A DNA stretch of 64,000 bases from Candidatus Poribacteria bacterium. GTDB lineage: Bacteria > Poribacteria > WGA-4E > WGA-3G. Made by a program: the position numbers and the translations under genes. Of the stretch, positions 3,351-64,000 are shown one piece after another; position 1 is the stretch's first letter, and each line of letters opens with the position of its first letter. Below the pieces are notes generated by a model that was not told the origin of the DNA, searched no databases, and saw only the letters and a program-made list of their open reading frames with translations. Where the stretch lies: positions 640,001-704,000 of the forward strand of contig CAXXUA010000004.1 in assembly GCA_963663765.2 (NCBI GenBank), given 5' to 3'.

Positions 3351-3436
3351 CAACTCCAAAACATGACTCACCTAAATTTAGAACAGGACTTATGCAGTTT
3401 TCATGATTACATCAATTATTTTGACGAAAATTATGT

Positions 3437-4219: not shown

Positions 4220-4284
4220 TTATCATAGCCTCTAATTTGACAATAGAAATGACTATATCAGCAATCTGACAGAATAATTTATAT

Positions 4285-4530
4285 GCACAATCTGGCAGAA
4301 TGTGCTACAACTACCCGCACAATCTGGAAGAATGTGCTACAACTACCCGCACAATCTGGAAGAATGTGCTACAACTACCCACACAATCTGGAAGAATGTG
4401 CTACAACTGCCCGCACAATCTGGCAAAATGTGCTACAACTGCCCGCACAATCTGGAAGAATGTGCTACAACTGCCCGCACAATCTGGAAGAATGTGCTAC
4501 AACTGCCCGCACAATCTGGAAGAATGCCTA
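4285..4530 (+). repeat. Tandem 32-bp REP-like hairpin array (approx. 8 units)
   Basis: GCACAATCTGGAAGAATGTGCTACAACT(A/G)CCC at 4285, 4317 ... 4509; GCACA/TGTGC stem ending in CTAC (GTAG on the minus strand). Confidence 0.95.
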
Positions 4531-4613
4531 TTATTGGCGAAGGTATTGATTAATAAATTAAACTTCATATAACGTACCTACCGTTTAGTTTATAAGTTAA
4601 AATAAAAAACGAG

Positions 4614-4696
4614 TTGACATATACAAAAAAATCTGTTAGAATTTAATATTGACATATACATTTAATGTTGACATATAGATTGAACAGTGCTATAAT
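4614..4696 (+). promoter_or_regulatory. Two tandem sigma70-type promoters upstream of tonB
   Basis: TTGACA(4614)-17 bp-TAGAAT(4637) and TTGACA(4668)-17 bp-TATAAT(4691), both with a TG extended -10; three TTGACATATA direct repeats. Confidence 0.7.
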
Positions 4697-8246: not shown

Positions 8247-8412
8247 GAGGAGTTACGCAGTTTTCTTGATTTAATCAAAAATTATGATGTAAATGATGTA
8301 ATTATCAGCATTTTTATGGGTTTCCAGCGCGCTTACAAAGCACTAAATCAAGAAATCAACGGTATGAATGCCAGTTAGGAATTCACCGTCTACCGTTTTT
8401 GCGTAAGTCCTG
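8247..8412. mobile_element. MITE family B, copy 2 (5-bp TSD AAAGG)
   Basis: GAGGAGTTACGCA...TGCGTAAGTCCTG flanked by AAAGG; interior alignable with 3437-3594. Confidence 0.8.
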
Positions 8413-10497: not shown

Positions 10498-10663
10498 TTC
10501 AACTCCTGTTAAACAAAATTCGTCTGTTTTAAGTATATCATGATGTCATATAATTGTCAAGATTTTAATATTGTTGATCAGGATTATTCAGTTTTAAGAA
10601 TTCTTTGTTGATGAATTTTACTTAATGTATACATCGTAGGTCGGGTAGAACGTGAGCGAAACC

Positions 10664-11783
10664 CATAGGTGTCAACTTAAGAAGAAAGTCAAGTGCTAAA
10701 TACCCCATCTCGGTAGGCGTGTTTTGTAAGTGCGCCGATAAACCCAGGATTGCCAACGGCGCGCTTACAAAGCACGCCTGCGGGGGAGTGCAGTTGAGGG
10801 GCGCGCTTACAAAGCACGCCTGCAGGGGAGTGCGGGTGAGTGCGGGGCGCGCTTACAAAGCACGCCTGCAAGGGAGTGCAGTTGAGGGGCGCGCTTACAA
10901 AGCACGCCTGCAGGGGAGCGCGGGTGAGTGCGGGGCGCGCTTACAAAGCACGCCTGCAGGGGAGGTGCGGGGTGAGTGCGGGGCGCGCTTACAAAGCACG
11001 CCTGCAGGGGAGGTGCGGGGTGAGTGCGGGGCGCGCTTACAAAGCACGCCTGCAGGGGAGTGCGGGGTGAGGTGCGGGGCGCGCTTACAAAGCACGCCTG
11101 CAGGGGAGTGCGGGGTGAGGTGCGGGGCGCGCTTACAAAGCACGCCTGCAGGGCAGTGCGGGTGAGTGCGGGGCGCGCTTACAAAGCACGCCTGCAAGGG
11201 AGTGCAATTGAGGGGCGCGCTTACAAAGCACGCCTGCAGGGGAGCGCGGGTGAGTGCGGGGCGCGCTTACAAAGCACGCCTGCAGGGGAGTGCGGGTGAG
11301 TGCGGGGCGCGCTTACAAAGCACGCCTGCAGGGGAGTGCGGGTGAGTGCGGGGCGCGCTTACAAAGCACGCCTGCAGGGGAGTGCGGGGTGAGTGCGGGG
11401 CGCGCTTACAAAGCACGCCTGCAGGGGAGGTGCGGGGTGAGTGCGGGGCGCGCTTACAAAGCACGCCTGCAGGGGAGGTGCGGGGTGAGTGCGGGGCGCG
11501 CTTACAAAGCACGCCTGCAGGGGAGCGCGGGTGAGTGCGGGGCGCGCTTACAAAGCACGCCTGCAGGGGAGCGCGGGTGAGTGCGGGGCGCGCTTACAAA
11601 GCACGCCTGCAGGGGAGTGCGGGTGAGTGCGGGGCGCGCTTACAAAGCACGCCTGCAGGGGAGTGCGGGTGAGTGCGGGTGAGTGCGGGGCGCGCTTACA
11701 AAGCACGCCTACCTTGAGTGAGAAAATCGTGATTACAAGGTTTCCCTCCTACAAGAATATGAATCGCTAAGTTGACACCTATG
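10664..11783. mobile_element. MITE family E (TIR CATAGGTGTCAACTTA, IS186/IS231-like ends) with approx. 20-bp target duplication
   Basis: Perfect 16-bp TIR; GGTAGAACGTGAGCGAAACC duplicated at 10644-10663 and 11784-11803. Confidence 0.85.
10712..11712 (+). repeat. REP doublet whose right arm is expanded to 21 tandem copies with G-rich linkers
   Basis: GGCGCGCTTACAAAGCACGCC x21, period 42-56 bp (mostly 46-48); one inverted copy GTAGGCGTGTTTTGTAAGTGCGCC at the left; only the last copy ends CTAC. Confidence 0.95.
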
Positions 11784-12035
11784 GGTAGAACGTGAGCGAA
11801 ACCCTACATTATAACCACAAACAATACATGTTAGGTTTTGCTCATGCTCTACCCCAACTATGCAATTAATTCACGAATACTAATAATATCTTCCAAAAAA
11901 CGAAAACAAAATAATCCTATAAAATTTATTTGCATGGTTTGCGAATTTTGTGATAGTATAATAAGCATGTCAACAAGGATTTTATGATTTGCGTTATACA
12001 TAGATGAAATACATAATATCCTATAGGAGAAAAAA

Positions 12036-12869: not shown

Positions 12870-12909
12870 GAAAACACATGTGAATAAAGTTCAATATTAG
12901 ATCATATAT

Positions 12910-13445
12910 CAATACCTTCGCCATCTTTGAGTGCTTCAGTTGAATGAGTATATAGTGTTGATCTACCATTGCTCTGTGATATTGTTAGGATTACATAAAT
13001 AAAAATAACTTCAGGTTTTCGTTGAAGTATTTTTAATTATCATAGCGTCTAATTTGACGATAGAATCTGACAGAATAATTTATATGCACAATCTGGAAGA
13101 ATGTGCTACAACTACACGCACAATCTGGAAGAATGTGCTACAACTACACGCACAATCTGGAAGAATGTGCTACAACTACACGCACAATCTGGAAGAATGT
13201 GCTACAACTACACGCACAATCTGGAAGAATGTGCTACAACTACACGCACAATCTGGAAGAATGTGCTACAACTACACGCACAATCTGGAAGAATGTGCTA
13301 CAACTACACGCACAATCTGGAAGAATGTGCTACAACTACACGCACAATCTGGAAGAATGTGCTACAACTACACGCACAATCTGGAAGAATGTGCTACAAC
13401 TACACGCACAATCTGACAGAATGTCTATTATTGGCGAAGGTATTG
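12910..13445. mobile_element. MITE family C, copy 2 (6-bp TSD ATATAT)
   Basis: CAATACCTTCGCCA...TGGCGAAGGTATTG with ATATAT on both sides; paralogue of 3695-4548. Confidence 0.88.
13086..13430 (+). repeat. Tandem 32-bp REP-like hairpin array (approx. 11 units)
   Basis: GCACAATCTGGAAGAATGTGCTACAACTACAC x10 identical plus one terminal variant. Confidence 0.95.
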
Positions 13446-13579
13446 ATATATAGAAAATATTTCAAAAGGAACAGCTTTGTTAGTATTCGTTTGTAGTAAT
13501 TTCTGCGATAGGTTTGTTCACATTGCAGTCTGTAGAACAATCTTTTGAGAATGCTATTTCATAACTCTTAGGAGAGAAT

Positions 13580-39189: not shown

Positions 39190-41307
39190 TTACTTCAAAA
39201 TCAACATCCGTCGCGTCGCAGTAAAATCGCCTGCGGTGAGCGTATAGAAATACACACCGCTTGCGACAGGTTCACCGACAGCGTTTCTGCCGTCCCAATA
39301 CGCAGCACGACTTTTGCTTTGATAGATACCTGTTGGCTGCTGTCCTAATGTCAATGTCCGAACAACCGCCCCATTTGCTGAATAGATCGTCAAAGTTACA
39401 TCTGCTGACTTTGCGAGCTGGTAAGGTATCCACGTCTCTGGATTGAAAGGATTCGGGTAGTTTGGCAAGAGTGTTGTTTCTTTTGGTGTCAACACTACCA
39501 AGAGTTGTTCAAGGAAACGAATACCTTGTAGTGAGATTGGATCTGTTAGATTCAGCTGCTGTGTTTGTGTAAGCCACTTCTGGACATCTCTTGCATTTAA
39601 CAGAGTCGTAGCCTGGGAATGAAGAGTTGGCGCATTTTCACCTGCTCCCAATGCGGCTGCAACTTTTACAAGGTCAACGATATTGACAACACCATCACCG
39701 TTGATGTCTTCTTTATCTATATCCGATGTGTGATTAAATCGAGATGCCACTTGAACCAAATCAATGATATTTACGATCCCATCGCTGTTTACATCTTCCG
39801 GTCTTAGTTGAGGGTCTATAACGATTCCTGTATTGAACAACAGGTGTTTCAATATTTCGCCCTCGCTGTCTGTAAGGATAACATCGGATAGTATCAGGTT
39901 TGTTGCTTTAATGTCAAGCACTTCAAATGTAATAGACGCGAGATTACCATCACCGTTAACTGTTCCAGCAACAGAAGTCGCAGCAAGCGTGATTTTATTT
40001 GTATCTTCTATCGGCGGTATAGGAAAAGCACCGGTGGGCAGGTAATCTTCATTTGCACTCCCAACATAGCGAAGGACTTTTGAATCGTATATGACACTAA
40101 ACTGGTAACCGCCAACGTTTTGTCCATTCTCAATACTCACGTTAATGGTGAAGTGTTGTCCATTCGCGGGTGATATGACTCGGTAGGGGGTGATACTCAC
40201 TCTATTAGTGGTTTGAAGATTCCAGAGATTGATATACTGATCGTTATGCGTTGCAAGGGTGTTTCCATCGGGACTGAACAATACGGTGTTATAATCGCTG
40301 TCCCCGTAATAGTTGTAACTATCCGGATTTTGATATACATCAAACGCAGCTTTCGGTCTGGCAGTCTCAACATCCCATAGGTAGACGGTGGTGTTTTCTA
40401 TAGTTGCGAGTATTGAACTATCAGAACTGAATGAACCCGATTGCCCTTGTATACTGGCTTTGTATGTGCTTGTGTCCACATCTAACAAGCTAGCTTTGTC
40501 GTCCTGCATGTTTATCAAGAGTGTTTTGCCATCAGGACTAAACATTACCCGATTGATTATGTCTGTACGTCCTTCAATGGTATTTTTGAGATCACCTGTA
40601 GCAACATCCCACAAACGAACTGTACCGTCCGAACTTCCGCTTGCCAACGTTTTTCCATCGGGGCTGAATGATGTGCTATAGACTGCCCCTTTGTGCCCAA
40701 CAATAGTTCTTTTTATTTCACCAGTAGAGACATCCCATAAATCAACGGATCTCCGTTGATTAGCATTTGCCAATGTAGAACTATCTGGACTGAATGAAAG
40801 ACTTTGTGCCAAATTTATATGTCCTCCCGAAATAGTGGCTTTGTGTGTCCAAGTGTCTGTGTCCCACAGATCTACTACCACTTCATTTTGCCAACCGATA
40901 TTACTCATACTCGCCAACGTTTTTCCATCAGGACTGAACAGTAATCTCGCGACATTATCTCCATTTCCATTTAGAGTGCTTTTGCGTACCCGTGTTGCAA
41001 CATCCCACAATAATATTGATCCGTTCAGTTCTCCAGTTGTCAATGTTTTTCCATCTGGACTAAATGCGATACTATAAATTGAGCGAGTTCTGGAGCCATC
41101 AAGTGTAATTATGTGCTCACCTGTAGAAACATTCCATAGGTCCACAGAGTAATTTGTTACACTTGCAAGTGTTTTTCTGTCGGGACTGAACGCTATGCTT
41201 GTAATGTATCTTGAAGTGTTAATAATCGTACGGGGTTCATCTTGTGCAAAGGTGCTTAGCTGAACAAATAAGATTAGAAGTATGGATAAAGTAATACGCC
41301 TCTTCAA
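39190..41307 (-). CDS. Secreted WD40-repeat protein with cohesin, dockerin-like and FlgD/T9SS-like C-terminal domains
   Basis: Signal peptide; repeated 'FSPDGKTLAS...LWDV'; 'GYQFSVIYD' cohesin; two 'D(V/I)N.DG.VNI.DLV' repeats; 'NYPNPFNPETWIPYQL'. Confidence 0.93.
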   Translation of the reverse strand: MKRRITLSILLILFVQLSTFAQDEPRTIINTSRYITSIAFSPDRKTLASVTNYSVDLWNVSTGEHIITLDGSRTRSIYSIAFSPDGKTLTTGELNGSILLWDVATRVRKSTLNGNGDNVARLLFSPDGKTLASMSNIGWQNEVVVDLWDTDTWTHKATISGGHINLAQSLSFSPDSSTLANANQRRSVDLWDVSTGEIKRTIVGHKGAVYSTSFSPDGKTLASGSSDGTVRLWDVATGDLKNTIEGRTDIINRVMFSPDGKTLLINMQDDKASLLDVDTSTYKASIQGQSGSFSSDSSILATIENTTVYLWDVETARPKAAFDVYQNPDSYNYYGDSDYNTVLFSPDGNTLATHNDQYINLWNLQTTNRVSITPYRVISPANGQHFTINVSIENGQNVGGYQFSVIYDSKVLRYVGSANEDYLPTGAFPIPPIEDTNKITLAATSVAGTVNGDGNLASITFEVLDIKATNLILSDVILTDSEGEILKHLLFNTGIVIDPQLRPEDVNSDGIVNIIDLVQVASRFNHTSDIDKEDINGDGVVNIVDLVKVAAALGAGENAPTLHSQATTLLNARDVQKWLTQTQQLNLTDPISLQGIRFLEQLLVVLTPKETTLLPNYPNPFNPETWIPYQLAKSADVTLTIYSANGAVVRTLTLGQQPTGIYQSKSRAAYWDGRNAVGEPVASGVYFYTLTAGDFTATRRMLILK

Positions 41308-41519: not shown

Positions 41520-42763
41520 TGTACTGCCACCGGAAATTCGGGCTACTCTCTAAGACAAGATTATGGTATAATATCCATCTACTTGAAAGGAGTATCCGAT
41601 GGCAAAACGAAAACGAAGAACCGTCACCCCCGAGTTTAAAGCCGAAGTTGTTCTTGAGGCTTTTAGCGGTGAAAGTTCCCAAGCAGAAATATGTCGGCGG
41701 CATAACCTCAGCGATGAACAGCTTTCAAAGTGGAAGCGACAGCTTCTTGAAAATGCGGCGACCCTCTTTGAACCCGCTGATAAAAAGACTGATGCCGCTG
41801 CGGAGCGCATTGCACACCTTGAGCAACTTGTTGGACGATTGACTGTAGTACTTGACATTCAAAAAAAGCCTCGACTTGGTTGAGTTGACCCCAATGGAGC
41901 AGCGAAAAATGGTTACGGCATTACGGACAGACTTTTCAGTTCGGCAGATATGTGAGACACTCGGTTTCAACCGAAGCAACCTCTATTATCACCCCAAGCA
42001 GGCCCCGTGTGAAGCGGGCCTCCGGGATGAAATAGAGAAGTTATCTTTGCTATATCCAACTTATGGATATAGGCGTATCACACCATTGTTAGTGCGTAAC
42101 GGATACACCATCGGGTATAAACGTGTTGCCCGATTGATGAAATCCGCGAACCTCTCGGTTTCTGTCAAACGTGTCTGTCAAACCACGACATCCGTTGCGG
42201 GTGTGCGTCCCTGGAGCAATCGGCTTGAAAACCTTGATGTCTCCCGATGTGATCAGGTCTGGGTGGGCGATATTACCTACGTCCGCCTCAAAGGACACTT
42301 CATCTACGTTTGTCTGCTCATGGATGTCTTCACTCGCATGATCAGAGGGTGGCATATCAGTCAACACTTGACGCAATCTCTGACGCTGAAACCCTTAGAG
42401 ACAGCATTATGTCAAAGTGTTCCAGAGATCCATCATTCTGATCAAGGCGTTCAATATCTTTCAAATTCGTATATCTCACTGCTTAGGCATCATGGGATTG
42501 AGATTTCAGTTGCCCGGAGAGGGTGTCCTTGGGAGAACGGATATGCTGAAAGGCTTATCCGTTCTCCCAAGGAAGAAGAAGTTCATCTCAACGACTATGA
42601 GAACATTCACGAAGCGAGAACCCGCATTGAGCATTTTATTACACAGGTGTATAATCACAAACGCCCTCACTCTGCGTTAGGGTATTTGACACCTATGGAA
42701 TTTGAGCAAAAAAACTTGTCTTAACTTTGCTAAATATTGGTCTGAATAAACGGTAGCACTTCA
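41520..42763 (+). mobile_element. IS3 family insertion sequence (orfA 41599-41883, orfB ending 42724)
   Basis: TG...CA imperfect TIRs, HTH orfA, A7G slippery site at 41861, 'WVGDITY', 'HSDQGVQY', 'WENGYAE', 'RPHSALGY'. Confidence 0.95.
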
Positions 42764-42768
42764 AACGA

Positions 42769-43752
42769 ATGCCTTATAAACCTAGCGATTATTTTAAAAC
42801 TCCATATCTACGAAACTCAGATGAATTATGGAAATATATGCATATAGATAAATTCATGTCAATGCTAAGCAATGGATCACTCTATTTTCCTAACATCTAT
42901 CGCTTTGACGACAAATATGAAGGCACTTTAACAAAACGATCAAGAAAAGAAGTCAAGAAAAAAAGCCTATTAGATAATAATACACTAATAAAATTCACTG
43001 AAGTATTAAAAAAAAGAGAAGAAATTAAAAAAGAATATCCTAATGAGAAAGAGAGAGAAAACAGAATATCATCATATTCCTTTGAAGTATTACTAAAAGT
43101 TTTTTCAAACCATCTCATTTTTTGTAACTGTTGGTTTATAAAAACTGAAGAAAGCCATTCAATGTGGGCTGAATATGGTGATAAAATCCCGACATCCATA
43201 GCCATTCAAACGACGGTGGGTGACTTGAAAAAAAGTTTAAAAATTAGTGATTTTTGTATCCATATAGGTAAAGTTAGATATGTAAACTATGAAAAAGATC
43301 ATATTAAGGGATATGAAAAGTTTGCGTCAGAAGACTTAACTGATCCTGCCATAGTTCTCAAACTACTTTACGCTCCTGTTATGCATAAAAGAAAAATCTA
43401 TAATGACGAGCGTGAAGTCAGAGCAATCATCGCATTCGAAAATACCTATGAAAAATACTTAAATGCAGATAACATAAAGAAAGATAGCATAACAGAAATA
43501 CCTTTCTTTAGTAAACAACTTTTAGATTTAGATACATATCACGACTCCCCAGATGATCATGAATCCGACTTAACACAACGTGTTCGTGTTGGAGAACATG
43601 TCTTTATCAACATAAAGACATTAATACAAAAGGTTGTCATACCTCCAAATGCTAATACTTATTTTGAGAAGCCATTAAAAGAACTATTAGATAAGCACGG
43701 TATAGACCCCGATATAGTAGAAAGATCTAAAATACCTGATAAAAACCGATGA
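42769..43752 (+). CDS. DUF2971-like protein
   Basis: 'LWKYM..DKF', 'F.DKYEG', 'CNCW....ESHSMWAEY', 'KR..Y..E.EVR'. Confidence 0.75.
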   Translation: MPYKPSDYFKTPYLRNSDELWKYMHIDKFMSMLSNGSLYFPNIYRFDDKYEGTLTKRSRKEVKKKSLLDNNTLIKFTEVLKKREEIKKEYPNEKERENRISSYSFEVLLKVFSNHLIFCNCWFIKTEESHSMWAEYGDKIPTSIAIQTTVGDLKKSLKISDFCIHIGKVRYVNYEKDHIKGYEKFASEDLTDPAIVLKLLYAPVMHKRKIYNDEREVRAIIAFENTYEKYLNADNIKKDSITEIPFFSKQLLDLDTYHDSPDDHESDLTQRVRVGEHVFINIKTLIQKVVIPPNANTYFEKPLKELLDKHGIDPDIVERSKIPDKNR

Positions 43753-43760
43753 GAAGTGGT

Positions 43761-44363
43761 CTACAACAGTTGATTCAGAACCACATCTGGAATCTGTTTC
43801 TCTTCAAATCGCAAAGCATAATAATCGTTTGGATTATTAGGTTCTAACGCTAACTTGTTATATGTTTCAAGAGCAATACCTCTAAATTCTCCCCAAAAAG
43901 TCTTTACTGATAAAACTGCTTTATTTTCAAATACAAGAAGACCAGAAGAAGCTATAATATAAGCATATCCTTTATATGCAAAGTTTAATTCAGCAAGGAC
44001 AATTCGTTCATAATCTGGGCATAACAGAAGAATCAAATCATAACTTGACACATCAACAGTAAATTCAGTAATATAGCGTTCGTTTCCGCTCCAATCCGTT
44101 TTTTCAGCACCATTAGGATCTCTTTCTTTTGGGTATCTATCAATAGCTACAACCTTTCCGCCATTTTCTATGCCTAATGATTTATTAATTTCATCTACTT
44201 TAGTATTAAATGCCTCACTACCATTGTAATATTTTCTACTGATTGAAAAAGGTTCTCGGTCTTTGAATACCAGAACATCATAATAATTATCTTCCCCCAA
44301 ACCAACTAAATCTGAACCTCTATAAAAAATAGGTTCTAACTTAACCAACAAGACATTTAACAT
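43761..44363 (-). CDS. Hypothetical protein
   Basis: AGGAG RBS before ATG 44363; TTGACA upstream at 44429. Confidence 0.65.
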   Translation of the reverse strand: MLNVLLVKLEPIFYRGSDLVGLGEDNYYDVLVFKDREPFSISRKYYNGSEAFNTKVDEINKSLGIENGGKVVAIDRYPKERDPNGAEKTDWSGNERYITEFTVDVSSYDLILLLCPDYERIVLAELNFAYKGYAYIIASSGLLVFENKAVLSVKTFWGEFRGIALETYNKLALEPNNPNDYYALRFEEKQIPDVVLNQLL

Positions 44364-44644
44364 AAGTCTCTCCTGAATATTATTCTTTACCCTTACAATA
44401 AGTAAAACACATCTGATTATCTTTGTCAATCTTGTATTGGCAATATTAGATTTTGGAATCTAAGGTAATTTTTGGAATCGTTTCCGCCTGAAAAGGTAAA
44501 CTTATTCTGTCATAATTAACTGAAACCAATCTATTAAACCTAATCTTTCTAACAACATATTTTGCGGTATTGGATTGACGCTTTCTATATTTATGACATT
44601 GAACTGTGCATTAAATGCTGATTCTAAGCCCAATTCATTTTGTA

Positions 44645-44673
44645 TTGCACATATTTTGTTTATTTGCTACAAT
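44645..44673 (+). promoter_or_regulatory. Sigma70-type promoter directly before the structured region
   Basis: TTGCAC-17 bp-TACAAT with TG extension; predicted +1 near 44680. Confidence 0.6.
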
Positions 44674-44679
44674 ATATGT

Positions 44680-46391
44680 TGACGTTGGCAATTCACGGAG
44701 CGCGTGAGTTACGTCAGGGCTGCTTCCTAATCATTTTAGGTGCGCCGCAGGTGCAAGCACACCCGCGACGCTTAGCACTGCCATAATACGAGTATGACAG
44801 CGCTGGTTTCTATTATATCAGAAAGTTCTTCTTGCTGGTAGTTTAAAGTGGAAACCAGCTCCCTAATGAACTTTGACGTTCAAGTTGGGTAATATTTAAA
44901 CAGGTCTACAAGCGTTTGCTATTAGACCATTGCCTTTCAGTCCTATATAACGGAGTAAGTCCTCCGAACCGTCTGCAAATTGATCGAGAAATCCGTTCAC
45001 CCGGGCCCTGAACTCCTCCCACTGGCTCGCAAAGCGATGCATCTTAAACACGTCTACACGCAGCCATCTCCACAACTTCTCAATCGGGTTCAACCACGGT
45101 GCATAGGTCGGTAGCCAAACAGGCTTGATCTGTGGTAACTCTGATAACGCATCAAGCACATCTGGATGTTTATGAATAGACCAGTTATCTTGAACAACAT
45201 AAAGTATTTCTGCTTGTGGATATACTTGTGTCAACTTCTGATACATTTCAATCACTTTCGCACGTCCTACAATGTAGTTATCAAGATAACAGACCTGCCC
45301 TGTCAACGCATTCAGTGCACCAATAATTCGCCATTGCTGGTTATTTCCATCACAACTTGCCACAGGAATACTTTCCGGCGGTGCTTGTGTCCAAACACGC
45401 CCCGCTTCAGGCCAACGAGTATATCCCATCTCATCCAGAAATACCAACTCTTGTTGACCACGATTGCCAATGGTCTGCTGTAAGCAGGAACACAAATGCA
45501 ACACTTTCTCCTTATACTCAGGATCCGGACTATACTGCTGCACGCGACCTGAGCGAAGACGCAAACCACAACGAGACAGCACTCTATGAACACCGCTCAG
45601 GCTGTATCCTTCTAACCAATCAAGACTCGCACGTAGTGTCCGAAGCGTCCAACGATTTGGGGGAGGCACATCAGTAGAAACAACTTTCGCATTATCCATA
45701 ACTTCAGCAGGGACTTGGCGCACACGTTCTAATAGTTCTTCTTCTTTTTTTTTTGAAAATCGTTGTCTTGCTCCACCATGTTGTCGCTGTATGAGTTCAT
45801 CAAAACCTTCTTCTTCATAAATATTCAACCATCTGTAGACAGTATCAGGCTTGCGGCGTTTGAGTAACCCACTTTTTGAAACCCGGTGTGCAGGAATACC
45901 ATCGTTTACTTTCAACAACGCTGCAGCTTTTTCTCTGACATCAGGCCGGGGGTGATGATCTCTGTATTTAATCAATTTCTGTCTTTCTTCTTCTGAAAGA
46001 ATAAGTTCTCTGCGTTTTGCCATGATATACTCCTTATATTTAGAATTATATCATTATAACATTACCCCGTTTGAATGTCAAAGTTCATTAGGGTGAGTTG
46101 CCTGAAACTTCTTCTATTTGGTTAACAAACCTGTTAACCTTCCCTGTAGACTGTCAAAATGTGTATACACAACCCCGGTGTTACTTAGTGCAGTCTAAAA
46201 ATGGGATGCCCCTAAGTATTATATATCAGCACGTATAGCAACTTTATACGTTCACATAGATCAACATTAGGTGACATGCTAGTTAGCGATGCTGTCACGC
46301 ACGGATTATCGCGCACATTGCATGGAGATACTATTGATAGGTATGGTACAGCTGCTACCACAAAGTATCCATTCAATAGAGGTATATATCA
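44680..46391 (+). ncRNA. Candidate large structured RNA or leader (approx. 490 nt once the IS630 at 44866-46088 is removed)
   Basis: About ten consecutive stems and a possible pseudoknot; non-coding; starts at the predicted TSS; family not recognised. Confidence 0.5.
44866..46088 (-). mobile_element. IS630 family insertion sequence (transposase 44896-46023)
   Basis: TIR ATGAACTTTGAC...GTCAAAGTTCAT, TA duplication in CCCTAGGG; 'FLDE', 'VQDN...H', 'LPTYAPWLNPIE'. Confidence 0.96.
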
Positions 46392-47153
46392 GTGAAAAAG
46401 TGGTTATCACAATACTTCAGAATTCTAATAGGATTTGTTTTTGGCTTTTTGATTGCTATACTACTTGTTCATGGTACAGAGTTATTTGGTTATGCACAAG
46501 CAGATACTGCTACATTTGCGATTATTGGTATAGGAACACTTATTGGAATCGTTTAGCATATCCAACACAAGAGCAACAAATGAATTTTAATGTTTCAGAC
46601 TTAAAATGGTACGATATTGGTGAAAAAACTGAATTTTATCTAAGGGAATATCCAAAAATATTGGAAGCTTCCTTAAGAACTTTACAAGAGATACATCCAA
46701 ATGTTTCGAAAACAGAATTATATAAAATAGTCATCAAATCCCATGCAGATCTTATAGGTATTCCCCCTGAAGAGAAAGTTGATTATGCAGAAGATGTTTT
46801 ACGACAAGTAGAAACGATATGTATTGCACGATCTACACCATTCTGTTTTCGCATTATTGTTTTTCATCTAATAACTCAATTTGATAAAGTTCGGACTGGA
46901 GAGTCCCCAGATGTCCGAAAAACGCGAGGAAATCAGAAGCACGGATTTGATGCAGAAGCTGGAAGAAAAAGTGACAAGCCTACGACGAGATATGACACCA
47001 GAACAGACTATGAGCTGCCTAATACAGAACAACGACTTCTTTACCATATTAGAAGCCGACGATCTAATAGAAGGAGCAACCGCAGCACTGTGGATACTAA
47101 TCGATATGATACTGATAAACCTGGGCTACCCAATTCCAGATGACAAAACATAA
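46392..47153 (+). pseudogene. Two-TM protein with helical domain, broken by two single-base indels (approx. 46553 and 46905)
   Basis: GAGGT RBS plus GTG 'MKKWLSQYFRILIGF...'; +T in GTTTAG and -C in TCCCC join three frames into approx. 253 aa. Confidence 0.55.
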
Positions 47154-47169
47154 TGAGGTTTAATAGAGC

Positions 47170-48668
47170 ATGGATATAGCAATACTTATTGTGATTAGTT
47201 CTATAGCCCACAGAGGTGCATGCGTTATTATACCATTTCCAATAGATTTATTCTCATTATTATTGTATAATATTTGACAAATTTTATTTAGAGAAAGGTA
47301 GTTTTCTATGAACAAAAAAGTTCCTGATATTACAGAAAGTGTTAAAGAACTAAAATCCCTCATGAGCACCGCTAAGGATACGACTGAAAAAGACAAAATT
47401 CGTATGCTCTATCTACTAAAAAGCGGTGAAGCGAAAAATCGTATAGGTGTAGCCGCTTTGCTCGGTATGTGCCGAGAAACGATTGGCCAATGGTTATCCA
47501 AGTATGAAGCAAGGGGACTTGAGCAGTTGTTAGAACGCCGTTATGCTCCGGGACGCAAACCCTTTATGACACCCGATCAACTTGAGACACTCCGAGAAAA
47601 ATTGAACGAACCAGAAGGTTTTAGCAGTTATGTTGAGATCCACCGATATGTCATTGAGACGTTTGGAGTTGAGATAAGTTATCAGGCGATTTATGCACTG
47701 GTGCATGATAGATGGCATGCGAAACTCAAAGTGCCACGCAAAAGTCATATAAAAAAAACGCCGATGCAGCAGATGAGTTCGTAAAGAACTTTTCATCAGA
47801 AGTATTCTCTGCTATTTCAGAAAAGCGTTCCACTGGTCAGCGTGTTCGCCTTTTCTGTGAAGATGAAACCAGATATGGCACTTTATCGGACACTCATAGA
47901 CGGATTACCGCACGGGGTGTCAAACCTGTTGCCAAAATAGATTATACTTATGAGGCAGTTTATCTATATGGAGCTGTTGAACCCCTTACGGGCAAAGGGT
48001 GTTTTCTTGAACTCCCTTATCTGAATGCAGCCTGTTTCCAGATCTTTATAGACCATCTCAGTGAGACTTTTCCCGATACCCTAAATGTGGTGATCCTTGA
48101 TAATGGTCGGTTCCATCACGCAAAAGCGTTGAAAGTGCCTGAAAACGTTGTCCTACACTTTCTACCTCCTTATTGTCCGGAATTGAACCCGATTGAGCGT
48201 CTGTGGCAAGATATCAAAGCAAAGTTATTTAGCAAAACATATCAAACCTTGAAACACATGCAAGAAAGCATCACACACATACTATCTGATTATTCTAACG
48301 ATGTCATCGCAAAAATCACAGGGTTCTCGTATTTTATAAAAACTGCTAATGAGATATAATCAATTAGAATTGGTATTACCAACAATAACATTAACCGCAC
48401 CGGTGTATTATGCAATCCTATTTGGACGACTACATCTTTTGGAAATAACTTTGTTTCTGTATACATGTTCACTTCTATTCATATCTCTTGCCTTAACGGG
48501 TTATTGCTCTACGGTTGGATAGGTCTACTAATTGCAGGAATTGCGACATGGATTGGCATGCCACTTCTAAACTTATTTTTCAGATATAATCCTGGCTCAC
48601 AATTACAGATATGCGGCATAGTCACTCTAATCTGGACAACGGCTTGTAACCACTCCTTGACTATGTAA
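47170..48668 (+). pseudogene. Small membrane protein interrupted by IS630
   Basis: Removing the IS restores '...HALLPTITLTAPVYYAILF...GWIGLLIAGIATW...'; further indels present. Confidence 0.45.
47231..48375 (+). mobile_element. IS630 family insertion sequence, two-ORF frameshift type (47308-47784 and 47712-48359)
   Basis: TACCATTTCCAATAGATT/AATCAATTAGAATTGGTA ends, (T)TA duplication, A8 slippery site at 47751, 'EDETRYG', 'LDNGRFH', 'LPPYCPELNPIE'. Confidence 0.95.
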
Positions 48669-48805: not shown

Positions 48806-51800
48806 ATGTCAGAAGCCACACAAGAATATCTCTTTAGTCCAACCGAAGACACCAATCCTGGATTCAAAGCCACACTGGAATACATCCGCGAAGTTGCCAA
48901 AACCCAACATAGAAAGGGAGAACTATTTGAGCGATTGATGCTGAAATATTTCAGTGAAGACCCTGACTATAAAGAGCAGTTTTCTGATGTATGGCTATGG
49001 AAACAGTGGGCACAACTCCGAACAGAATTTGACGGTCGTGATATAGGCATAGACCTTGTTGCCAAAAAACATGATGGTGGAATTTGTGCCATTCAATGTA
49101 AATGTTATGCTCCTGAAACTCGGATTTCAAGGAATGATATTCAATCATTCCTCGCCACTGCCTCCCTTCCTCCTTTCGCTGACAACACAAGAATTCTTGT
49201 CAATACAGGCGGCGAATTAGGAGAGAACGTGCTCAGAAATATAGAGCCATTAGGAAACAAGTTTCGTATAATTCGCTTCAATGAACTTGAAAGCAGTCCA
49301 TTTGACTGGCCCGATCTCAGCATACAAGAACCCGAAGCACTTACATATAAGCAAAGAAAGTTTGCTCTGGAAGACCATCAAAGAGAAGCGTTTGATGATG
49401 TTATCAACGGCTTTAACAAACATGACCGCGGCAAACTTATTATGGCGTGTGGTACAGGTAAAACTTTCACAGCACTCCGTATTGCTGAAGAAATCGCAGG
49501 AATTGAGGGAAGAGTGTTATATCTCGTGCCATCTATCGGTTTACTTTCACAAGCAATGCGTGAATGGTCAGATCAACGCGGAATAGATCATAGTTACATC
49601 GGTATCTGCTCCGACAGAAGCGCAGGAGATAAAACCGAAGATGCATCTATTCAGGAACTCAAAATTCCTGTCACAACAGATCCATTAGCAATCACACAAG
49701 CATTACAGAAAACTGACACAAATAAAATGACAGTAGTTTTCTGCACCTATCAATCGCTTCCGAAAATTGAGGAAGCACAGAATTCAGGGTGCCCCTCAAT
49801 TTGATATAATCCTCTGCGATGAAGCACACAGAACCACCGGCATAGACAAACCCGGAGATAAAACATCGCCATTTATCCTTGTCCACGATGCAGAACGAAT
49901 ACGTGCTAACAAACGCCTCTATATGACAGCTACTCCCAAACTTTATACCGAAAGTGCAAGGACAAAAGCAGCTGAATATAATGTTGACGTGTTCTCTATG
50001 GACGATGAAGAGAAATACGGACCCCAATTTCATAGGCTTCCCTTCTCAAAAGCCGTTGAAATCGGTCAACTTTCCGACTATAAAGTAGCAATATTTAGCA
50101 TATCTGAATTTGAAGTCAATTCGGCACTGTCAGGTGATACCGGTAAGTATGGTAGCGAAATAAATATAAACGATGCAACGCGTATCATCGGTTGTTGGCG
50201 TGCATTACAAAATCCTGAAGATAAGGAAAAAGATGACGAAACACGCAAACCCTTAAGACGCGTAATCGCATTCACAAACAGAATTGACGAGTCAAAGGCT
50301 TTGGCACACTATTGGAATGATATTATTGAAGATGCAATTATAAAACTACCGGAAGATGAAATACCTAACGATTTTGCATGCGAAACGAAACACGTTGACG
50401 GAACAGTCCACGCACTGAATCGAAAGGCACGTATTGATTGGCTCAAAGGTGATACTGATGGTGTTTGTCGTATTCTCTCCAACGCAAGATGTCTCTCCGA
50501 AGGTATTGATGTTCCCGCACTTGACGCTGTTATCTTCTATAAACCCCGAAAATCCCATATTGATGTCGTCCAAGCAGTCGGTCGTGTCATGCGTAAAGCA
50601 CCCGGCAAACAGTTCGGTTATGTCATATTGCCCGTCGCAATTCCTGAGAATAGAGACCCTGCCGCAGCATTAGATGACAATGAAAGGTTCTCAAATGTCT
50701 GGAGCGTCCTAAACGCACTTCGTTCACACGATGATAGACTTGACGCTAAAATTAACAGTATTGACCTTAATCAAGAACTCCCTGATCAGATTGTCATTGG
50801 TGGCAAGGGTAGCGGAAATGGTGACCATACTCAGATTACCGAACAACTCCCCCTTTTACCGATTGAAATTCCCATAGAGGCAATTATCTCAAAAATTGTT
50901 CAGAAATGCGGTGATAAACCATATTGGGAGAACTGGGCAAAAGATGTTGCTAAGATCTTTGATATACTTGTTGACCGCATCAATAATCTATTGGAAAATA
51001 CCGAAAACACCGCGTTAATCAAGAAGTTTGAAAACTTTTACACCGAGTTGCAAGAAACAATTAACGACTCTATAACACGGACTAACGCTATTGATATGAT
51101 GGCACAACACATCTTGACACGCCCTGTATTTGACGCACTCTTTGAGAATTATGACTTCTCATCTGGTAATCCAGTCGCAATTGCCCTGAATAGTCTACAA
51201 ATGGATTTTGCTGAATTCGGGCTTGAAAGTGAAACTCGCGATTTGAAAGGTTTCTATGAAAGCGTTCAGAAACGTGCTAGTGGGATCAAGAAAACCGAAG
51301 GAAAGCAAAGTGTGCTATCGGATTTATACGAGCAGTTTTTCAAAAAAGCACTAAAAAAAGAAGCAGACCGACTCGGCATTGCGTACACACCAATTGAACT
51401 TGTTGACTTCATTCTACATAGTGTCAACGATGTATTGCAGGAGGAATTTGGGAAAAGCCTCAGCGATGAAGGTGTTCATATCCTTGATCCATTCACCGGA
51501 ACCGGAACGTTTCTTGTGCAACTTCTCCAGTCCGGACTCATCAAACCTGAAGACCTTGAACGGAAATACCACGAAGAACTCCACGCGAACGAAATCCTCT
51601 TACTTGCCTACTACATCGCATCTGTCAATATTGAGGAAACATACCGCGTTCAGCGCGGGGAAGATACCAATTACGAACCATTTGACGGCATTATCCTGAC
51701 AGATACCTTCAATCTGAATAGATACAAAGAAGAAAAACTACAACAAGATACCCTCCTTCCTCAAGAACAACGAATGGTAGAAAACAATGAACGGGTAGAA

Positions 51801-53621
51801 CGTCAACAAAACCTTCCAATTGAGGTTATCATTGGCAATCCACCTTGGTCAGCATGGCAAAAGAGTTCTGCAGACGACAACCCTAACGTACCATATCCTG
51901 TACTTGAAAATCGTATCAGCAAAACCTACGCTGCACGCTCGACAGCAACGTTGAAAAATAGTCTATACGACACATACAAAATGGCAATCCGGTGGGCAAC
52001 TGACAAACTTCAAGAACGAGAACAGGGGATCGTTGCCTTTGTCACCCCTGCTTCTTGGATAGATGGAAATGTTGATGCGGGAATTCGTGCTTGTCTACCG
52101 GAGGAGTTTAGTGTAATTTATGTCCTGAACTTATTAGGGAATGCCAGAATATACGGAGAGCAAGGAAAATACCAAGGAGAAGGTGTGTTTGGGAATGCTA
52201 CACAATCACCTGTTGCTATCACACTTCTTGTTAAGAACCAAAATACTGGAGATGACGACTGTCGTATTCACTACCGAGATATAGGTGGCAACCTCAAGCG
52301 TACAAAGAAACTGGAGATGCTGAAAGAGGTAATTTCAATATCAGGAATCAATGATTGGAAAATAATCACACCAAATTCATATCATGATTGGATTGGACAA
52401 CGTAGTGATGCATTTACCCGATTTTATCCAATTGGATCGGAGGAAGCAAGGACGCGCAGGTCAGATCATACCATCTTTCGTTTATACAGTAACGGATATA
52501 AAACCGGAAGAGACGCACACATCTACAATTTCTTACGCGATTCCTGTGCCGAGAACGCGCAGCTAATGGTACAAGACTATCTAGATACGCTTTCAGAATT
52601 TGAAACGAATCCTGGACGTTCAGTAAATGAGATAACAAGCCAACACAACTTAAATATTAAGTGGGATGGAGATCTTAAGAATAAACTGCGGCGAAAGAAA
52701 AAACCAGAATTTAAAGAGGACTATATCCGAAAAGTTTCGTACCGACCATTTGTTGCCACGAATTGTTATGCTGACCATTTTTTCGCACAAAGAAGAGGCA
52801 AGATGCATCAAATCTTTCCCAACAGTTTAAGTGAAAACCGCGTAATATGTGTCCCAAACAAAGGTTCTAAAAATCCGTTTTCCGCTCTGATGACTGATAC
52901 GATGCCAGATATGCACTTTATTGAGGCAGCACAATGTTTTCCGCGGTGGACACATTCGGTAACTGGACACACTTCTCAGCTATCAAGCGGAGGCGAAATG
53001 CGTTTTGACAACATTTCAGATACAGCACTTCGCGCCTTCCAACAACAATATCCCGACGACTCCATCACAAAAGACGACATATTTGACTATGTTTACGGTA
53101 TCTTGCACGCCTCCAGTTATCGAGAACAGTTCGCCAATGATTTATCGAAAATGTTACCACATATCCCGTATGCGCCAGACTTCCGCGCCTTCTCAGAAGC
53201 AGGAAAAGACCTTGCACACCTCCACCTCAATTATGAAACCTGCGATCAATATCCAGGACTGAAAGTTGAATCCATCAAAACTCAATTATTTTGGGAAGAA
53301 AAACCGGAACACTTCCTGTTACGGAAACAAGCGATGAAATATAAAGATAAGAATACAAAAGACATCCTTATTATCAACGATCATGTTATGTTAACAGGCA
53401 TCCCTGAAGAAGCACATCGCTATGTCGTCAACGGCAGAACCCCACTGGAGTGGTTTATCAACCGATACAAAATAACAACGGACAAGAACAGCGGCATCGT
53501 TAACGACGCAAACGCATGGTTTGAAAATCCGCGCGACCTCATCACTGCAATAGAACGCATCGTCCATGTCAGCGTCGAATCCGCCCGCATAATTGGCAAC
53601 CTACCTACCAAGATAACTTAA
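48806..53621 (+). CDS. Type ISP restriction-modification enzyme (LlaGI/LlaBIII-like), frameshifted at approx. 49788
   Basis: Mrr-like 'GIDLVA...AIQCK', 'MACGTGKT', 'DEAH', 'QAVGRVMR', MTase 'DPFTGTG' and 'NPPW', C-terminal TRD; one extra G in TCAGGGTGCC splits the ORF. Confidence 0.92.
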
Positions 53622-55254: not shown

Positions 55255-55621
55255 TAGTAATACAAGTAACAGATGTCATCAATAGTGATAGTTTCGTTTT
55301 CTCTGATAGGTAATATTTTCTTGACTAAATTCAAAAAATACCTATCCTACTTGTATCTGCTGGATAGGAATGCAATCATTAACTTTCCCTGTTAATGTCC
55401 TATCCACCCATATTGCATTGGAGAAAGCAGGTGCAGTTATTCTGCTGATACAATAATTTAGCCCGGAGTGAAGTGCCATTGATTTTTTAGACCATAATTT
55501 CGTAAAGTTAAGACAAGTGTTCTTTCTCAAATTCAATAGGTGTCAAATAACCATAGTTATATGACGCTATTTCGTCTCATTGAAAGCAAACACAAAAAAT
55601 AAACTGATCGGAGGATCAATC

Positions 55622-62859: not shown

Positions 62860-63116
62860 ACTGGTGTTAGGGCAATAATCGGTCAACACATCTGCCGTCA
62901 ACCTCTGAATTATAGCGCATATTGCGTTAATACTTTCTTACGAAATATGGTAAAAAGTGTCTATAAACGCAGTCAGGACATACTGCCGTCAACCTCCCAG
63001 AGAATTTGCACGATTGGAGGTCGACAGCAGACACCCCAAAAATCCGTGCAAAACCAAAATTAACTTGACAGCAACTGTGCGGGTTTGTTATCATATACAT
63101 GTCATTTTCGGATAGC
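62860..63116 (+). promoter_or_regulatory. CRISPR leader with palindromic motif and promoter
   Basis: CTGCCGTCAACCTCC(62983)...GGAGGTCGACAGCAG(63030), second CTGCCGTCAACCTC at 62892; TTGACA(63065)-18 bp-TATCAT(63089). Confidence 0.8.
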
Positions 63117-64000
63117 CTTCTAATCGAACCAATTTGGAATAGAAACTTTTCATACTTTACGCAGACGGATAAGATTGGCAGAACTTCTAATCGAACCAAT
63201 TTGGAATAGAAACTGCAGTAACTGACAATGACCTTGACCCATATTTGAGCACTTCTAATCGAACCAATTTGGAATAGAAACCCAGTAGCTCCTCCCTGTA
63301 TAGCCTCGTTCAATCCTACTTCTAATCGAACCAATTTGGAATAGAAACCAGACAGTTCATAAGCAATACTATGCCGATCCAGACTTCTTCTAATCGAACC
63401 AATTTGGAATAGAAACCACACACCATTTATTCCTATTTGGAGCAGAGGTACAACTTCTAATCGAACCAATTTGGAATAGAAACTTTGAATTCATATAATA
63501 CTCCTTGTGTTGACTAACACACTTCTAATCGAACCAATTTGGAATAGAAACCGAGCTGCTGCTGTCCATGCACCTGTGCCTAACGACTTCTAATCGAACC
63601 AATTTGGAATAGAAACTTATCAGTATAGCAGAATTGTATAAACTTATCAATAACTTCTAATCGAACCAATTTGGAATAGAAACATGTCACGTTTTTCTGC
63701 TGCAGAGAATGCCCCTTTACTTCTAATCGAACCAATTTGGAATAGAAACAATGCTGCGTTGGCAGATAAGGTTATGCAGCGTATTCTTCTAATCGAACCA
63801 ATTTGGAATAGAAACGACCGCTCAGATTTCTTGCATTGTACGGTTGTATTTCACTTCTAATCGAACCAATTTGGAATAGAAACATATAGAAAATGATTTC
63901 CGCATTCACAAGGTAGTTGACTTCTAATCGAACCAATTTGGAATAGAAACTTTGCAAATATTAGCTGAACGCACAAAAAATCGTAGACTTCTAATCGAAC
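63117..64000 (+). CRISPR. CRISPR array, 30-bp repeat CTTCTAATCGAACCAATTTGGAATAGAAAC (type I-B-like), runs off the window
   Basis: 13 identical full repeats plus one partial; 13 unique spacers of 35-38 bp. Confidence 0.99.

What the first reader, a model, noticed from the sequence alone, without database searches (positions are those of the whole stretch)
44680..46391. Hidden approx. 490-nt highly structured non-coding element split by an IS630
Seen: a promoter (44645-44673) is followed at once by stems 44680-44716 (TGACGT/ACGTCA, AATTCACG/CGTGAGTT), 44726-44740, 44747-44766, 44774-44804 and 44802-44859 (GCTGGTTTC/GAAACCAGC). After excising the IS from CCC-TA-GGG come 46120-46139 (perfect 8 bp), 46141-46206 (TAGACTG/CAGTCTA) whose loop TACTTAG can pair with CTAAGTA at 46212 (pseudoknot), 46231-46251, 46271-46298 and 46328-46385. 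The last stem abuts the GAGGT RBS of a two-TM gene. TCAGG(44714)/CCTGA(46101) could close a multibranch domain across the IS, and TATATCAG recurs three times. I do not recognise it as tRNA, tmRNA, RNase P, SRP or an intron. Inference: a novel large ncRNA or regulatory leader coupled to the downstream membrane/helical-domain genes. Some stems have A-C mismatches on the plus strand, so the minus strand or an ssDNA role remains possible.
Basis: partly seen in the sequence, partly recalled or inferred. Interest (0 to 1): 0.75.

Follow-up and report, generated by a model that had tools for sequence, protein, structure and literature searches.

The report
Conserved structured non-coding element beside IS630
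Next to a jumping gene in an uncultured Poribacteria-like genome lies a roughly 190-base, GC-rich, hairpin-forming non-coding stretch with its own promoter-like site that also occurs in a few related uncultured bacteria, but the proposed 490-base RNA split by the jumping gene is not supported.

Summary
The IS630-family insertion is real: 44866-46088, TA duplication inside CTAG, intact transposase. Only the left flank (about 44643-44863) stands out. It is 50% GC against a 29% GC spacer. It folds better than shuffles (z -2.97 on plus, -5.30 on minus) and ranks 11th of 672 window-strands. No open frame exceeds 59 aa across the healed region.

A pseudo-translation of this flank finds three database "proteins" at 74-94% identity. 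Each can be aligned to the window only by switching reading frames, so this is conserved non-coding DNA. Conservation peaks on the promoter-like site (TTGCAC-17-TACAAT, 44645-44673) and the first hairpins.

The right flank (46091-46391) folds no better than shuffles (z -1.24 and -0.09). Joining the halves gains no more energy than joining the left half to a shuffled right half, and the proposed TCAGG/CCTGA closure has pairing probability 0.

Rfam, tRNA/tmRNA, Pfam, plasmid and phage searches all give nothing. The strand is ambiguous: the outer hairpins favour plus and the central two favour minus. No covariation could be tested because no homologous DNA could be fetched.

Best reading: an unclassified candidate small RNA or leader of about 190 nt, with the IS at its 3' edge. 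Function is unproven and interest is modest.

The parts
44551..44640 (+). Upstream flank, homologous to a related sequence but diverged
   Evidence: P0019 residues 27-56 align here in window frame 1 at 16 of 30 identical. The core that follows aligns in a different frame.
44645..44673 (+). Sigma-70-like promoter: -35 TTGCAC 44645-50, 17-nt spacer, -10 TACAAT 44668-73 with TG before it
   Evidence: Consensus scan, (listed there as TGCACA-16-TACAAT, 9 of 12). It lies inside the most conserved block 44643-44732 (29 of 30 pseudo-residues identical to P0019, 27 of 30 to P0017 and to P0018).
44680..44716 (+). Hairpin He (TGACGT/ACGTCA outer stem, AATTCACG/CGTGAGTT inner stem), favoured on the plus strand
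   Evidence: -14.7 kcal/mol on plus against -9.3 on minus. Two inferred changes in relatives turn pairs into G.U on the plus strand (44703, 44707), and one (44693 in P0018) breaks a pair.
44717..44864 (.). Self-closing multibranch domain: GGG 44717-19 pairs with CCC 44861-63 and encloses hairpins Hd 44726-40, Hc 44742-71, Hb 44774-804 and Ha 44802-59
   Evidence: Folds. Hc is -13.9 on plus and -23.9 on minus; Hb is -7.9 and -15.8; Ha is -22.1 and -13.5. GC reaches 55% at 44700-44799. P0018 'PATLSTAI' aligns to 44762-44785 in a third frame.
44864..44865 (.). TA target duplication, left copy (the right copy is 46089-46090); the healed site reads CCCTAGGG
   Evidence: Sequence; exact 8-nt palindrome after excision. 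TA duplication and the CTAG preference of the IS630 family: PMC2170065 passages and a reference title.
44866..46088 (-). IS630-family insertion sequence with an intact 375-aa transposase gene (44896-46023)
   Evidence: (I6). Its own promoter-like site is 46081-46053 on the minus strand (12 of 12).
46091..46391 (+). Right flank: ordinary spacer or 5' region with several short hairpins, not shown to belong to the element
   Evidence: z -1.24 and -0.09; GC 40.5%; no excess gain on joining. Its conservation could not be tested.
46392..46556 (+). 54-aa ORF (GTG start, AGAGGT 8 nt upstream) with two hydrophobic segments; an orphan
   Evidence: It found only itself among 1,835,955,588 representatives. 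No Pfam or PADLOC match.

Best explanation
The real feature is a conserved non-coding module of about 190-220 nt (about 44643-44863), not a 490-nt RNA. It consists of a sigma-70-type promoter (44645-44673), a 5' hairpin (He), and a GC-rich four-hairpin domain that closes on itself just before the CTAG into which an IS630-family element later inserted.

I read it as the gene for a small structured RNA, or the 5' leader of a transcript, made rightward from the plus strand. The first hairpin would protect the 5' end and the compact multibranch domain would be the functional body, acting as a protein- or RNA-binding scaffold. In this genome the IS cuts it off from whatever lay 3' of it. The 300 nt to the right of the IS is ordinary spacer or 5' region of the small downstream ORF.

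Shown: the insertion anatomy, the absence of a coding frame, conservation in three other sequences peaking on the promoter and first hairpins, and folding of the left half better than shuffles. Inferred: that it is transcribed at all, the strand, and any function.
For: 1. IS anatomy.
2. Non-coding: no frame longer than 59 aa and none across the junction. There were 0 Pfam matches for 11 stop-to-stop frames and for the three database 'proteins'.
3. Conservation: the pseudo-ORF 44628-44783 finds P0017, P0018 and P0019 at 84, 74 and 94% identity. Each aligns to the window only through two or three frames, with shifts near 44640 and near 44760, and the three have three different ends. That fits non-coding DNA carrying indels.
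4. Uneven conservation: 29 of 30 pseudo-residues are identical over 44643-44732, against 16 of 30 over 44551-44640 for the same sequence P0019.
5. Structure: z -2.97 (plus) and -5.30 (minus) for 44675-44865, rank 11 of 672 in the window background. GC is 50% against 29% in the adjacent spacer.
6. Plus-strand hints: the promoter-like site; He and Ha are more stable on plus; inferred changes at 44703 and 44707 give G.U on plus, and 44754 C>T in P0017 turns a C.A mismatch into T-A.
7. The inferred changes visible at protein level fall more often in loops and linkers (44725, 44733, 44755, 44757, 44758) than in stems (44693, 44703, 44707, 44749, 44754), although stems hold more bases.
8. Independence from its neighbours: the element is absent from all 4 of 4 genome loci that carry the left-hand gene. 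P0017's contig (66,929 bases) is longer than every multi-contig cluster entry of either neighbouring gene family and matches no single-contig entry.
Against: No covariation was seen: no pair shows compensating changes on both sides, and one inferred change (44693 T>G in P0018) breaks a pair in He. The relatives are known only as protein translations, so third codon positions and the true DNA are unseen.

The strand is ambiguous. Hc and Hb, the two strongest hairpins, are 10.0 and 7.9 kcal/mol better on the minus strand, with 5 G.U pairs there. These become A.C mismatches on plus. He and Ha carry 4 G.U pairs on plus. This mix is also what decaying DNA palindromes would show.

The plus-strand z of -2.97 is matched or beaten by 43 of 672 background window-strands. 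No terminator-like site follows the domain: the only one in 43700-47300 lies inside the IS. The best-conserved part is the promoter plus the first hairpin, which could equally be a DNA operator-promoter. Promoter-like matches are no more frequent here than in shuffles. There is no transcript evidence of any kind.
Confidence: 0.45

Rival explanations
1. It is DNA-level sequence with no RNA function. One possibility is a conserved promoter-operator region whose inverted repeats bind proteins. Another is a relic of mobile or foreign GC-richer DNA whose palindromes are decaying. The hairpins fold on paper only because they are inverted repeats.
For: G.U-type mismatches are split 4 on plus and 5 on minus, as expected for random transitions in DNA palindromes. 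The conservation peak is the promoter plus the first inverted repeat. The neighbourhood is an island of IS elements, a restriction enzyme and an integrase gene. The IS itself is GC-richer (43.8%) than the spacer. Other intergenic stretches in the window fold as well or better.
Against: All six mismatches in the well-defined helices He, Hc and Hb are transition-type and none is a transversion, although that is only about a 1-in-11 event at a 2:1 bias (my estimate). Changes in He in the relatives weaken the DNA palindrome but keep plus-strand RNA pairing (44703, 44707). The element is single-copy in the 64-kb window and in the 72 kb of related loci, unlike REP-type repeats.
Confidence: 0.27
2. 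It is a type I toxin-antitoxin-like locus. The plus-strand transcript would be the long structured 5' region of the mRNA for the 54-aa hydrophobic peptide. The central hairpins, which fold best on the minus strand, would belong to an antisense RNA. The IS insertion would then have disarmed the toxin gene.
For: The small ORF has two hydrophobic segments and a Shine-Dalgarno sequence. Opposite strand preferences of neighbouring hairpins would fit overlapping sense and antisense RNAs. The best, though insignificant, Rfam match is the SymR antitoxin on the minus strand at 44739-44805. No plus-strand promoter-like site lies between 44673 and the ORF once the IS is removed.
Against: SymR scores 19.6 bits against a gathering score of 61 (E 0.16 to 1.4). 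The ORF found only itself. A 5' region of about 490 nt is far longer than in the type I systems I recall. The only minus-strand promoter-like site in the left half is weak (44812-44783, 9 of 12) and no terminator was found. The right flank is not structured.
Confidence: 0.1
3. One reading: one ncRNA or leader of about 490 nt (44680-44865 plus 46091-46391), interrupted by the IS.
For: The joined sequence gives z -2.86 (plus) and -3.26 (minus). Three TATATCAG copies on the same strand span both halves. No other plus-strand promoter-like site lies upstream of the ORF.
Against: The joined z is no better than the left half alone. The right half alone gives z -1.24 and -0.09. The gain on joining equals that with a shuffled right half, and TCAGG/CCTGA has pairing probability 0. 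The left domain closes on itself.
Confidence: 0.1
4. It is a small protein gene of 60-88 aa, as predicted in the three database records, that has been frameshifted in this genome.
For: Three gene calls exist, and two start with the same 'MAL'. There is a hydrophobic middle segment.
Against: Four sequences show four different frame structures and three different C-termini. I see no Shine-Dalgarno motif before the matching ATG at 44593 (read). A full promoter consensus and stable hairpins lie inside the 'ORF'. There is no Pfam match. AT-rich DNA translates into hydrophobic-looking peptides by default.
Confidence: 0.06

Closest known systems
Candidate structured ncRNAs found in long, GC-rich intergenic regions of AT-rich bacterial genomes (the GC-IGR / DIMPL approach; PMC8723152, PMC6429828, PMC8632094, PMC11109978). 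I saw only the search listing and the start of each abstract.
   Same: A GC-rich island (50-55% against a 29% spacer) in a long intergenic region. It has several adjacent hairpins, no coding frame and a promoter-like site in front.
   Different: Those motifs are accepted on covariation across many representatives. Here only three relatives are known, and only as translations, with no compensatory change seen. It belongs to none of the 4227 Rfam 15 families.
Type I toxin-antitoxin loci (hok/sok, symE/SymR and similar; features recalled, not from a call)
   Same: A small hydrophobic ORF lies downstream of a structured untranslated region. Some hairpins fold better on the opposite strand.
   Different: The ORF is an orphan and lies about 490 nt from the promoter. 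No antisense promoter or terminator is defined. The SymR match is far below threshold (19.6 against 61 bits).
REP/BIME-type palindromic intergenic repeats (recalled)
   Same: Adjacent GC-rich imperfect palindromes (Hb, Hc) in an intergenic region, with G.T-type mismatches.
   Different: The element is single-copy in the 64-kb window and absent from 72 kb of related loci. REPs are dispersed in many copies.
IS630/Tc1/mariner insertion sequences (ISY100, IS630; PMC2170065, passages read)
   Same: DDE_3 transposase with N-terminal HTH domains, terminal inverted repeats, TA duplication and insertion into TA within CTAG.
   Different: Nothing notable. This part is an ordinary family member.

Membership tests
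Any Rfam 15 RNA family | Covariance-model score at or above the family's gathering score | tested here: not met
   0 hits in the whole window. In permissive searches, including searches ending exactly at the IS borders so that truncated matches count, the best hit is SymR at 19.6 bits against 61.
tRNA / tmRNA | ARAGORN detection | tested here: not met
   0 genes in the window.
IS630 family insertion sequence | DDE_3 transposase with HTH domains | tested here: met
   PF13358 E 4.6e-22, with HTH_32, HTH_23, HTH_29 and HTH_28.
IS630 family insertion sequence | Terminal inverted repeats flanked by a duplicated TA (preferably in CTAG) | tested here: met
   I6. The healed site is CCCTAGGG. The family rule comes from PMC2170065.
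Structured ncRNA (generic standard) | Folding energy better than dinucleotide shuffles | tested here: inconclusive
   Left half: z -2.97 and -5.30. Right half: z -1.24 and -0.09. Background: 43 of 672 window-strands reach z <= -3.
Structured ncRNA (generic standard) | Covariation supporting the helices in homologues | not testable with these tools
   The only genome-contig scan went to the neighbouring gene, and its 4 loci lack the element. Only protein-level proxies exist, and they show no two-sided compensatory change.
Structured ncRNA (generic standard) | Conservation beyond that of the flanks | tested here: met
   29 of 30 against 16 of 30 pseudo-residues in the core and the upstream flank of the same relative. 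This is proxy evidence only.
Type I toxin-antitoxin | Small hydrophobic toxin ORF | tested here: met
   54 aa, with hydropathy peaks at residues 9-27 and 40-54.
Type I toxin-antitoxin | Antisense RNA gene overlapping the toxin mRNA | tested here: inconclusive
   Hc and Hb favour the minus strand. However, the only minus-strand promoter-like site is weak (44812-44783, 9 of 12) and no terminator was found.
REP/BIME repeats | Many dispersed copies in the genome | tested here: not met
   Apart from the self-match, blastn-short of the left half against the window found at most a 15-nt exact match, and against the four loci only matches with E of at least 2.5. Only 64 kb plus 72 kb were searched.
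Protein-coding gene | A shared open frame in the relatives | tested here: not met
   The frame shifts between the window and all three relatives, and P0018 switches to a further window frame (44762-44785) that P0017's alignment does not need. The ends differ.

The most novel reading that the evidence does not exclude
The left element is the founding example of an undescribed small structured RNA class of Poribacteria-like bacteria. It would have its own conserved promoter and a five-hairpin body, and would move independently of its neighbouring genes within defence and mobile-element islands. In the boldest form, its sense and antisense strands are both used, which would explain why neighbouring hairpins prefer opposite strands.
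Probability: 0.3. Interest if true: 0.45.

Novelty: new member of a known kind. Interest (0 to 1): 0.3.

Why it matters
If the element is transcribed and its helices are under selection, it would be a new structured RNA motif from a phylum with no cultured members. My one literature search (5 papers, none on the subject judging by title) found no work on its non-coding RNAs. It sits in an island with a candidate defence gene (PDC-S31), a Type ISP restriction enzyme and several IS elements, so a regulatory role there would be of some interest. As it stands it is a modest lead: one conserved, unclassified element with no transcript and no covariation evidence. The more striking claim, a large 490-nt RNA, does not hold.

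Tried and rejected
1. Rfam on the whole window, on the region including the IS, and on each flank cut exactly at the IS borders: nothing.
2. blastn 'distant' searches of both flanks against plasmids and phages: no match.
3. Synteny route. The left-hand 200-aa gene family has 11 members. blastn and blastn-short of both flanks found nothing in them. In L001 the upstream neighbour is a 668-aa ORF that I recognised by eye as a DNA ligase; no family search was run on it. In hindsight a DNA-pattern scan, or a scan with P0017-P0019, would have been the better use of that scan.
4. Interrupted-gene idea: no ORF crosses the healed junction.
5. Minus-strand RNA idea. It was prompted by z -5.30 and the 5 G.U pairs in Hc and Hb, and was weakened when per-hairpin energies showed He and Ha prefer the plus strand.
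6. CRISPR-repeat relic. A 12-nt match of 44803-44814 to the repeat end at 63340-63351 has E 0.56 and does not extend: chance.
7. CsrB-like GGA-loop sponge: I counted 4 GGA motifs by eye in about 490 nt, roughly the chance number. No tool was used.
8. attC or integron site: I found no RYYYAAC ... GTTRRRY pair by eye. No tool was used.
9. Context proteins. The 200-aa neighbour folds confidently (pLDDT 88.9) but has no PDB neighbour (best E 0.17, TM <= 0.18). PADLOC names only the DUF2971 protein.
10. The listing of cluster members for P0017-P0019 could not be run because the database was switched off.
11. Conservation of the right flank could not be tested.

Full report
**What is there.** The finding spans a long gap between two divergent genes, interrupted by an insertion sequence. 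The left gene is a 200-aa ORF on the minus strand (43764-44363). The right gene is a 54-aa ORF on the plus strand (46392-46556).

**The insertion sequence.** It is a complete IS630-family element at 44866-46088.
- Its terminal inverted repeats are 36 nt long and 86% complementary (I6), and both ends match one 18-nt pattern.
- It encodes an intact 375-aa transposase with DDE_3 and HTH domains.
- It is flanked by duplicated TA. Removing it restores CCCTAGGG, that is, TA within CTAG. This is the family's known target (PMC2170065, passages and a cited title).

**Is the flanking sequence coding or a known RNA?**
- With the IS removed in a script, no reading frame crosses the junction. The longest stop-to-stop frame inside the element is 59 aa.
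- Eleven such frames have no Pfam match.
- Rfam 15 gives no gathering-level hit in the whole window.
- Permissive searches give only noise, including searches cut at the IS borders so that truncated matches are allowed. The best is SymR at 19.6 bits against a threshold of 61.
- ARAGORN finds nothing.
- Both flanks have no blastn match in the plasmid or phage collections.

**Is it more structured than chance?** Only on the left.
- For 44675-44865, z is -2.97 on the plus strand (2 of 200 shuffles as good) and -5.30 on the minus strand (0 of 200).
- For 46089-46391, z is -1.24 and -0.09.
- I built a background from the window itself: 336 non-overlapping 190-nt windows on both strands, 20 shuffles each. 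Mean z is -0.51, 43 of 672 reach -3 and 13 of 672 reach -5.
- The left flank on the minus strand (-5.19 in that grid) ranks 11th of 672. Most of the ten stronger window-strands lie in tandem- or inverted-repeat zones.
- The left flank is also a GC island: 50% GC, peaking at 55%, beside a 29% GC spacer in a 39.8% GC window. The right flank is 40.5% GC.

**Do the two flanks form one RNA?** I found no sign of it.
- Joining them lowers the minimum free energy by 5.9 kcal/mol. Joining the left flank to shuffled versions of the right flank lowers it by 6.2 +/- 2.8.
- The proposed closing helix TCAGG/CCTGA has pairing probability 0.0.
- The joined z-scores (-2.86 and -3.26) are no better than the left flank alone.
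- The left flank folds as a self-contained unit on either strand. GGG 44717-19 pairs with CCC 44861-63 and encloses four hairpins, with a further hairpin (He) in front.
- The IS therefore sits at the edge of the structured domain rather than inside it.

- That family has 11 members. The scan returned four loci, three titled Candidatus Poribacteria and one 'uncultured bacterium'.
- None of the four contains anything like either flank.
- My last protein search used a trick: the stop-to-stop frame 44628-44783 as the query. It returned three database 'proteins', P0017 (60 aa), P0018 (68 aa) and P0019 (88 aa), at 84, 74 and 94% identity.
- Mapped back with tblastn, each needs more than one window frame:
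  - P0019 residues 27-56 align to 44551-44640 in frame 1 (16 of 30 identical), and residues 58-87 align to 44643-44732 in frame 3 (29 of 30).
  - P0018 uses frame 1, then frame 3, and its 'PATLSTAI' matches 44762-44785 in frame 2.
  - The three 'proteins' end at three different places.
- Four sequences with four frame structures means conserved non-coding DNA carrying small indels, not a gene.
- Conservation is uneven. It peaks over the promoter-like site (-35 TTGCAC 44645-50, -10 TACAAT 44668-73) and the first hairpins.
- This is the strongest evidence that the left element is functional.

**What the relatives say about structure.** I inferred the minimal nucleotide changes behind each amino-acid difference.
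- Two changes in He convert Watson-Crick pairs to G.U on the plus strand (44703 and 44707).
- One change in P0017 converts the C.A at the top of Hc into T-A (44754).
- One change breaks a pair (44693 in P0018, which also carries 44707 G).
- The rest fall in loops or linkers (44725, 44733, 44755-58) or on positions that are already mismatched (44749).
- No pair changes on both sides, so there is no covariation evidence. Third codon positions are invisible. This is compatible with a plus-strand RNA but proves nothing.

**Strand.** Per-hairpin energies are contradictory.

| Hairpin | Plus strand (kcal/mol) | Minus strand (kcal/mol) |
|---|---|---|
| He | -14.7 | -9.3 |
| Ha | -22.1 | -13.5 |
| Hc | -13.9 | -23.9 |
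| Hb | -7.9 | -15.8 |

There are four G.U pairs on plus and five on minus. Possible explanations are a plus-strand RNA that tolerates five A.C mismatches, overlapping sense and antisense RNAs, or DNA palindromes drifting by transitions. I cannot decide between these without transcripts or DNA alignments.

**Link to neighbouring genes.**
- The 54-aa ORF has two hydrophobic segments but found only itself among 1.84 billion representatives.
- The next gene has three relatives of 118-126 aa that match only its first about 100 residues. The window copy then diverges and runs on.
- For multi-contig clusters only the longest contig is shown. The inference is therefore firm only for P0017's contig.
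- Together with the 4 of 4 loci that lack the element, this suggests a module independent of both neighbours.

**Conclusion.** The best-supported reading (confidence 0.45) is a conserved, unclassified non-coding module of about 190-220 nt. It has a promoter followed by a five-hairpin domain, and is probably a small RNA or leader made from the plus strand. An IS630 has landed in the CTAG at its 3' edge.

Rivals:
- a DNA-level regulatory or relic sequence (0.27);
- a type I toxin-antitoxin-like arrangement with the small hydrophobic ORF (0.10);
- the original 490-nt RNA (0.10);
- a degraded small protein gene (0.06).

It resembles the GC-rich-intergenic-region candidates described by the DIMPL and GC-IGR papers (listing and abstract starts only), but it lacks the covariation on which those are accepted.

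**What stayed unchecked.**
- The DNA of the three relatives.
- Conservation of the right flank.
- The metagenome and viral collections, which were closed.
- Any transcript data.
- No supplementary files were consulted.

Noticed in passing
window 63105-63956 (runs towards the window end): CRISPR array. At least 13 copies of a repeat of about 30 nt ending ...GGAATAGAAAC, spaced 65-68 nt apart (family D4). The 180-aa ORF 62927-63469 on the minus strand overlaps it and is probably spurious. I saw no cas genes in the preceding 6 kb, judging by Pfam on ORFs of 150 aa or more.
   Followed up: no
window 48806-49804 and 49767-53621: A Type ISP restriction-modification enzyme is split into two ORFs that overlap by 38 nt in different frames. 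The first carries Mrr_cat_2 and ResIII; the second carries Helicase_C, the ISP coupler, N6_Mtase and Type_ISP_C. This indicates a frameshift.
   Followed up: partly
window 47308-47784 and 47712-48359: A second, different IS630-family element. Its HTH part and its DDE_3 part lie in two overlapping frames. It shares only a 45-nt stretch at 71% with the first IS (I5).
   Followed up: no
window 41599-42724; 42680-42763 against 55469-55552: An IS3-family element (orfA and orfB). Its terminal 84 nt recur inverted 12.7 kb away at 82% (I1), bracketing the whole stretch that holds the element, both IS630 copies and the restriction enzyme. Sequence at 75-88% identity to 42700-42765 also occurs in L003 and L004.
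   Followed up: partly
window 42769-43752 and 43761-44363; L002 791-2566: The DUF2971 protein matches the PADLOC candidate defence family PDC-S31 (E 7.9e-14). It lies tail-to-tail with the 200-aa gene both here and in L002. The 200-aa protein gives a confident beta-rich model (pLDDT 88.9) with no PDB neighbour (best E 0.17).
   Followed up: partly
window 46580-47143 and 46911-47153: The gene starting MNFNV matches its three relatives (118-126 aa) only up to about residue 100. It then diverges and stays open for 187 aa across an 80-aa ORF in another frame that has its own GGAG site. This looks like a rearranged 3' end.
   Followed up: partly
window 3385-4663, 8248-8397, 10555-11970, 12908-13560: Dense intergenic repeats with the strongest folding z-scores in the window, down to -11.6:
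- 32-nt-period arrays at 4184-4663 and 13017-13560;
- 46-48-nt-period arrays at 10704-11727;
- an element of about 150 nt at 3438-3578, repeated at 8248-8397 (83-90%);
- 3693-3819 repeated at 12908-13035 (95-97%);
- a perfect 35-nt inverted repeat at 4028-4147.
   Followed up: no
window 55255-55566: Another intergenic stretch that folds well (z -4.50, 0 of 100 shuffles as good). It partly overlaps the inverted IS3-end copy.
   Followed up: partly
window 46017-46046 (+): A promoter-like site inside the right end of the IS, reading outward (TTGCCA-18-TAGAAT, 10 of 12). It could now drive the right flank and the 54-aa ORF.
   Followed up: no
window 39190-41307 (-): A 705-aa protein with WD40 repeats matched by Pfam. 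By eye it also has dockerin-like repeats and a C-terminal sorting-tail-like end.
   Followed up: no
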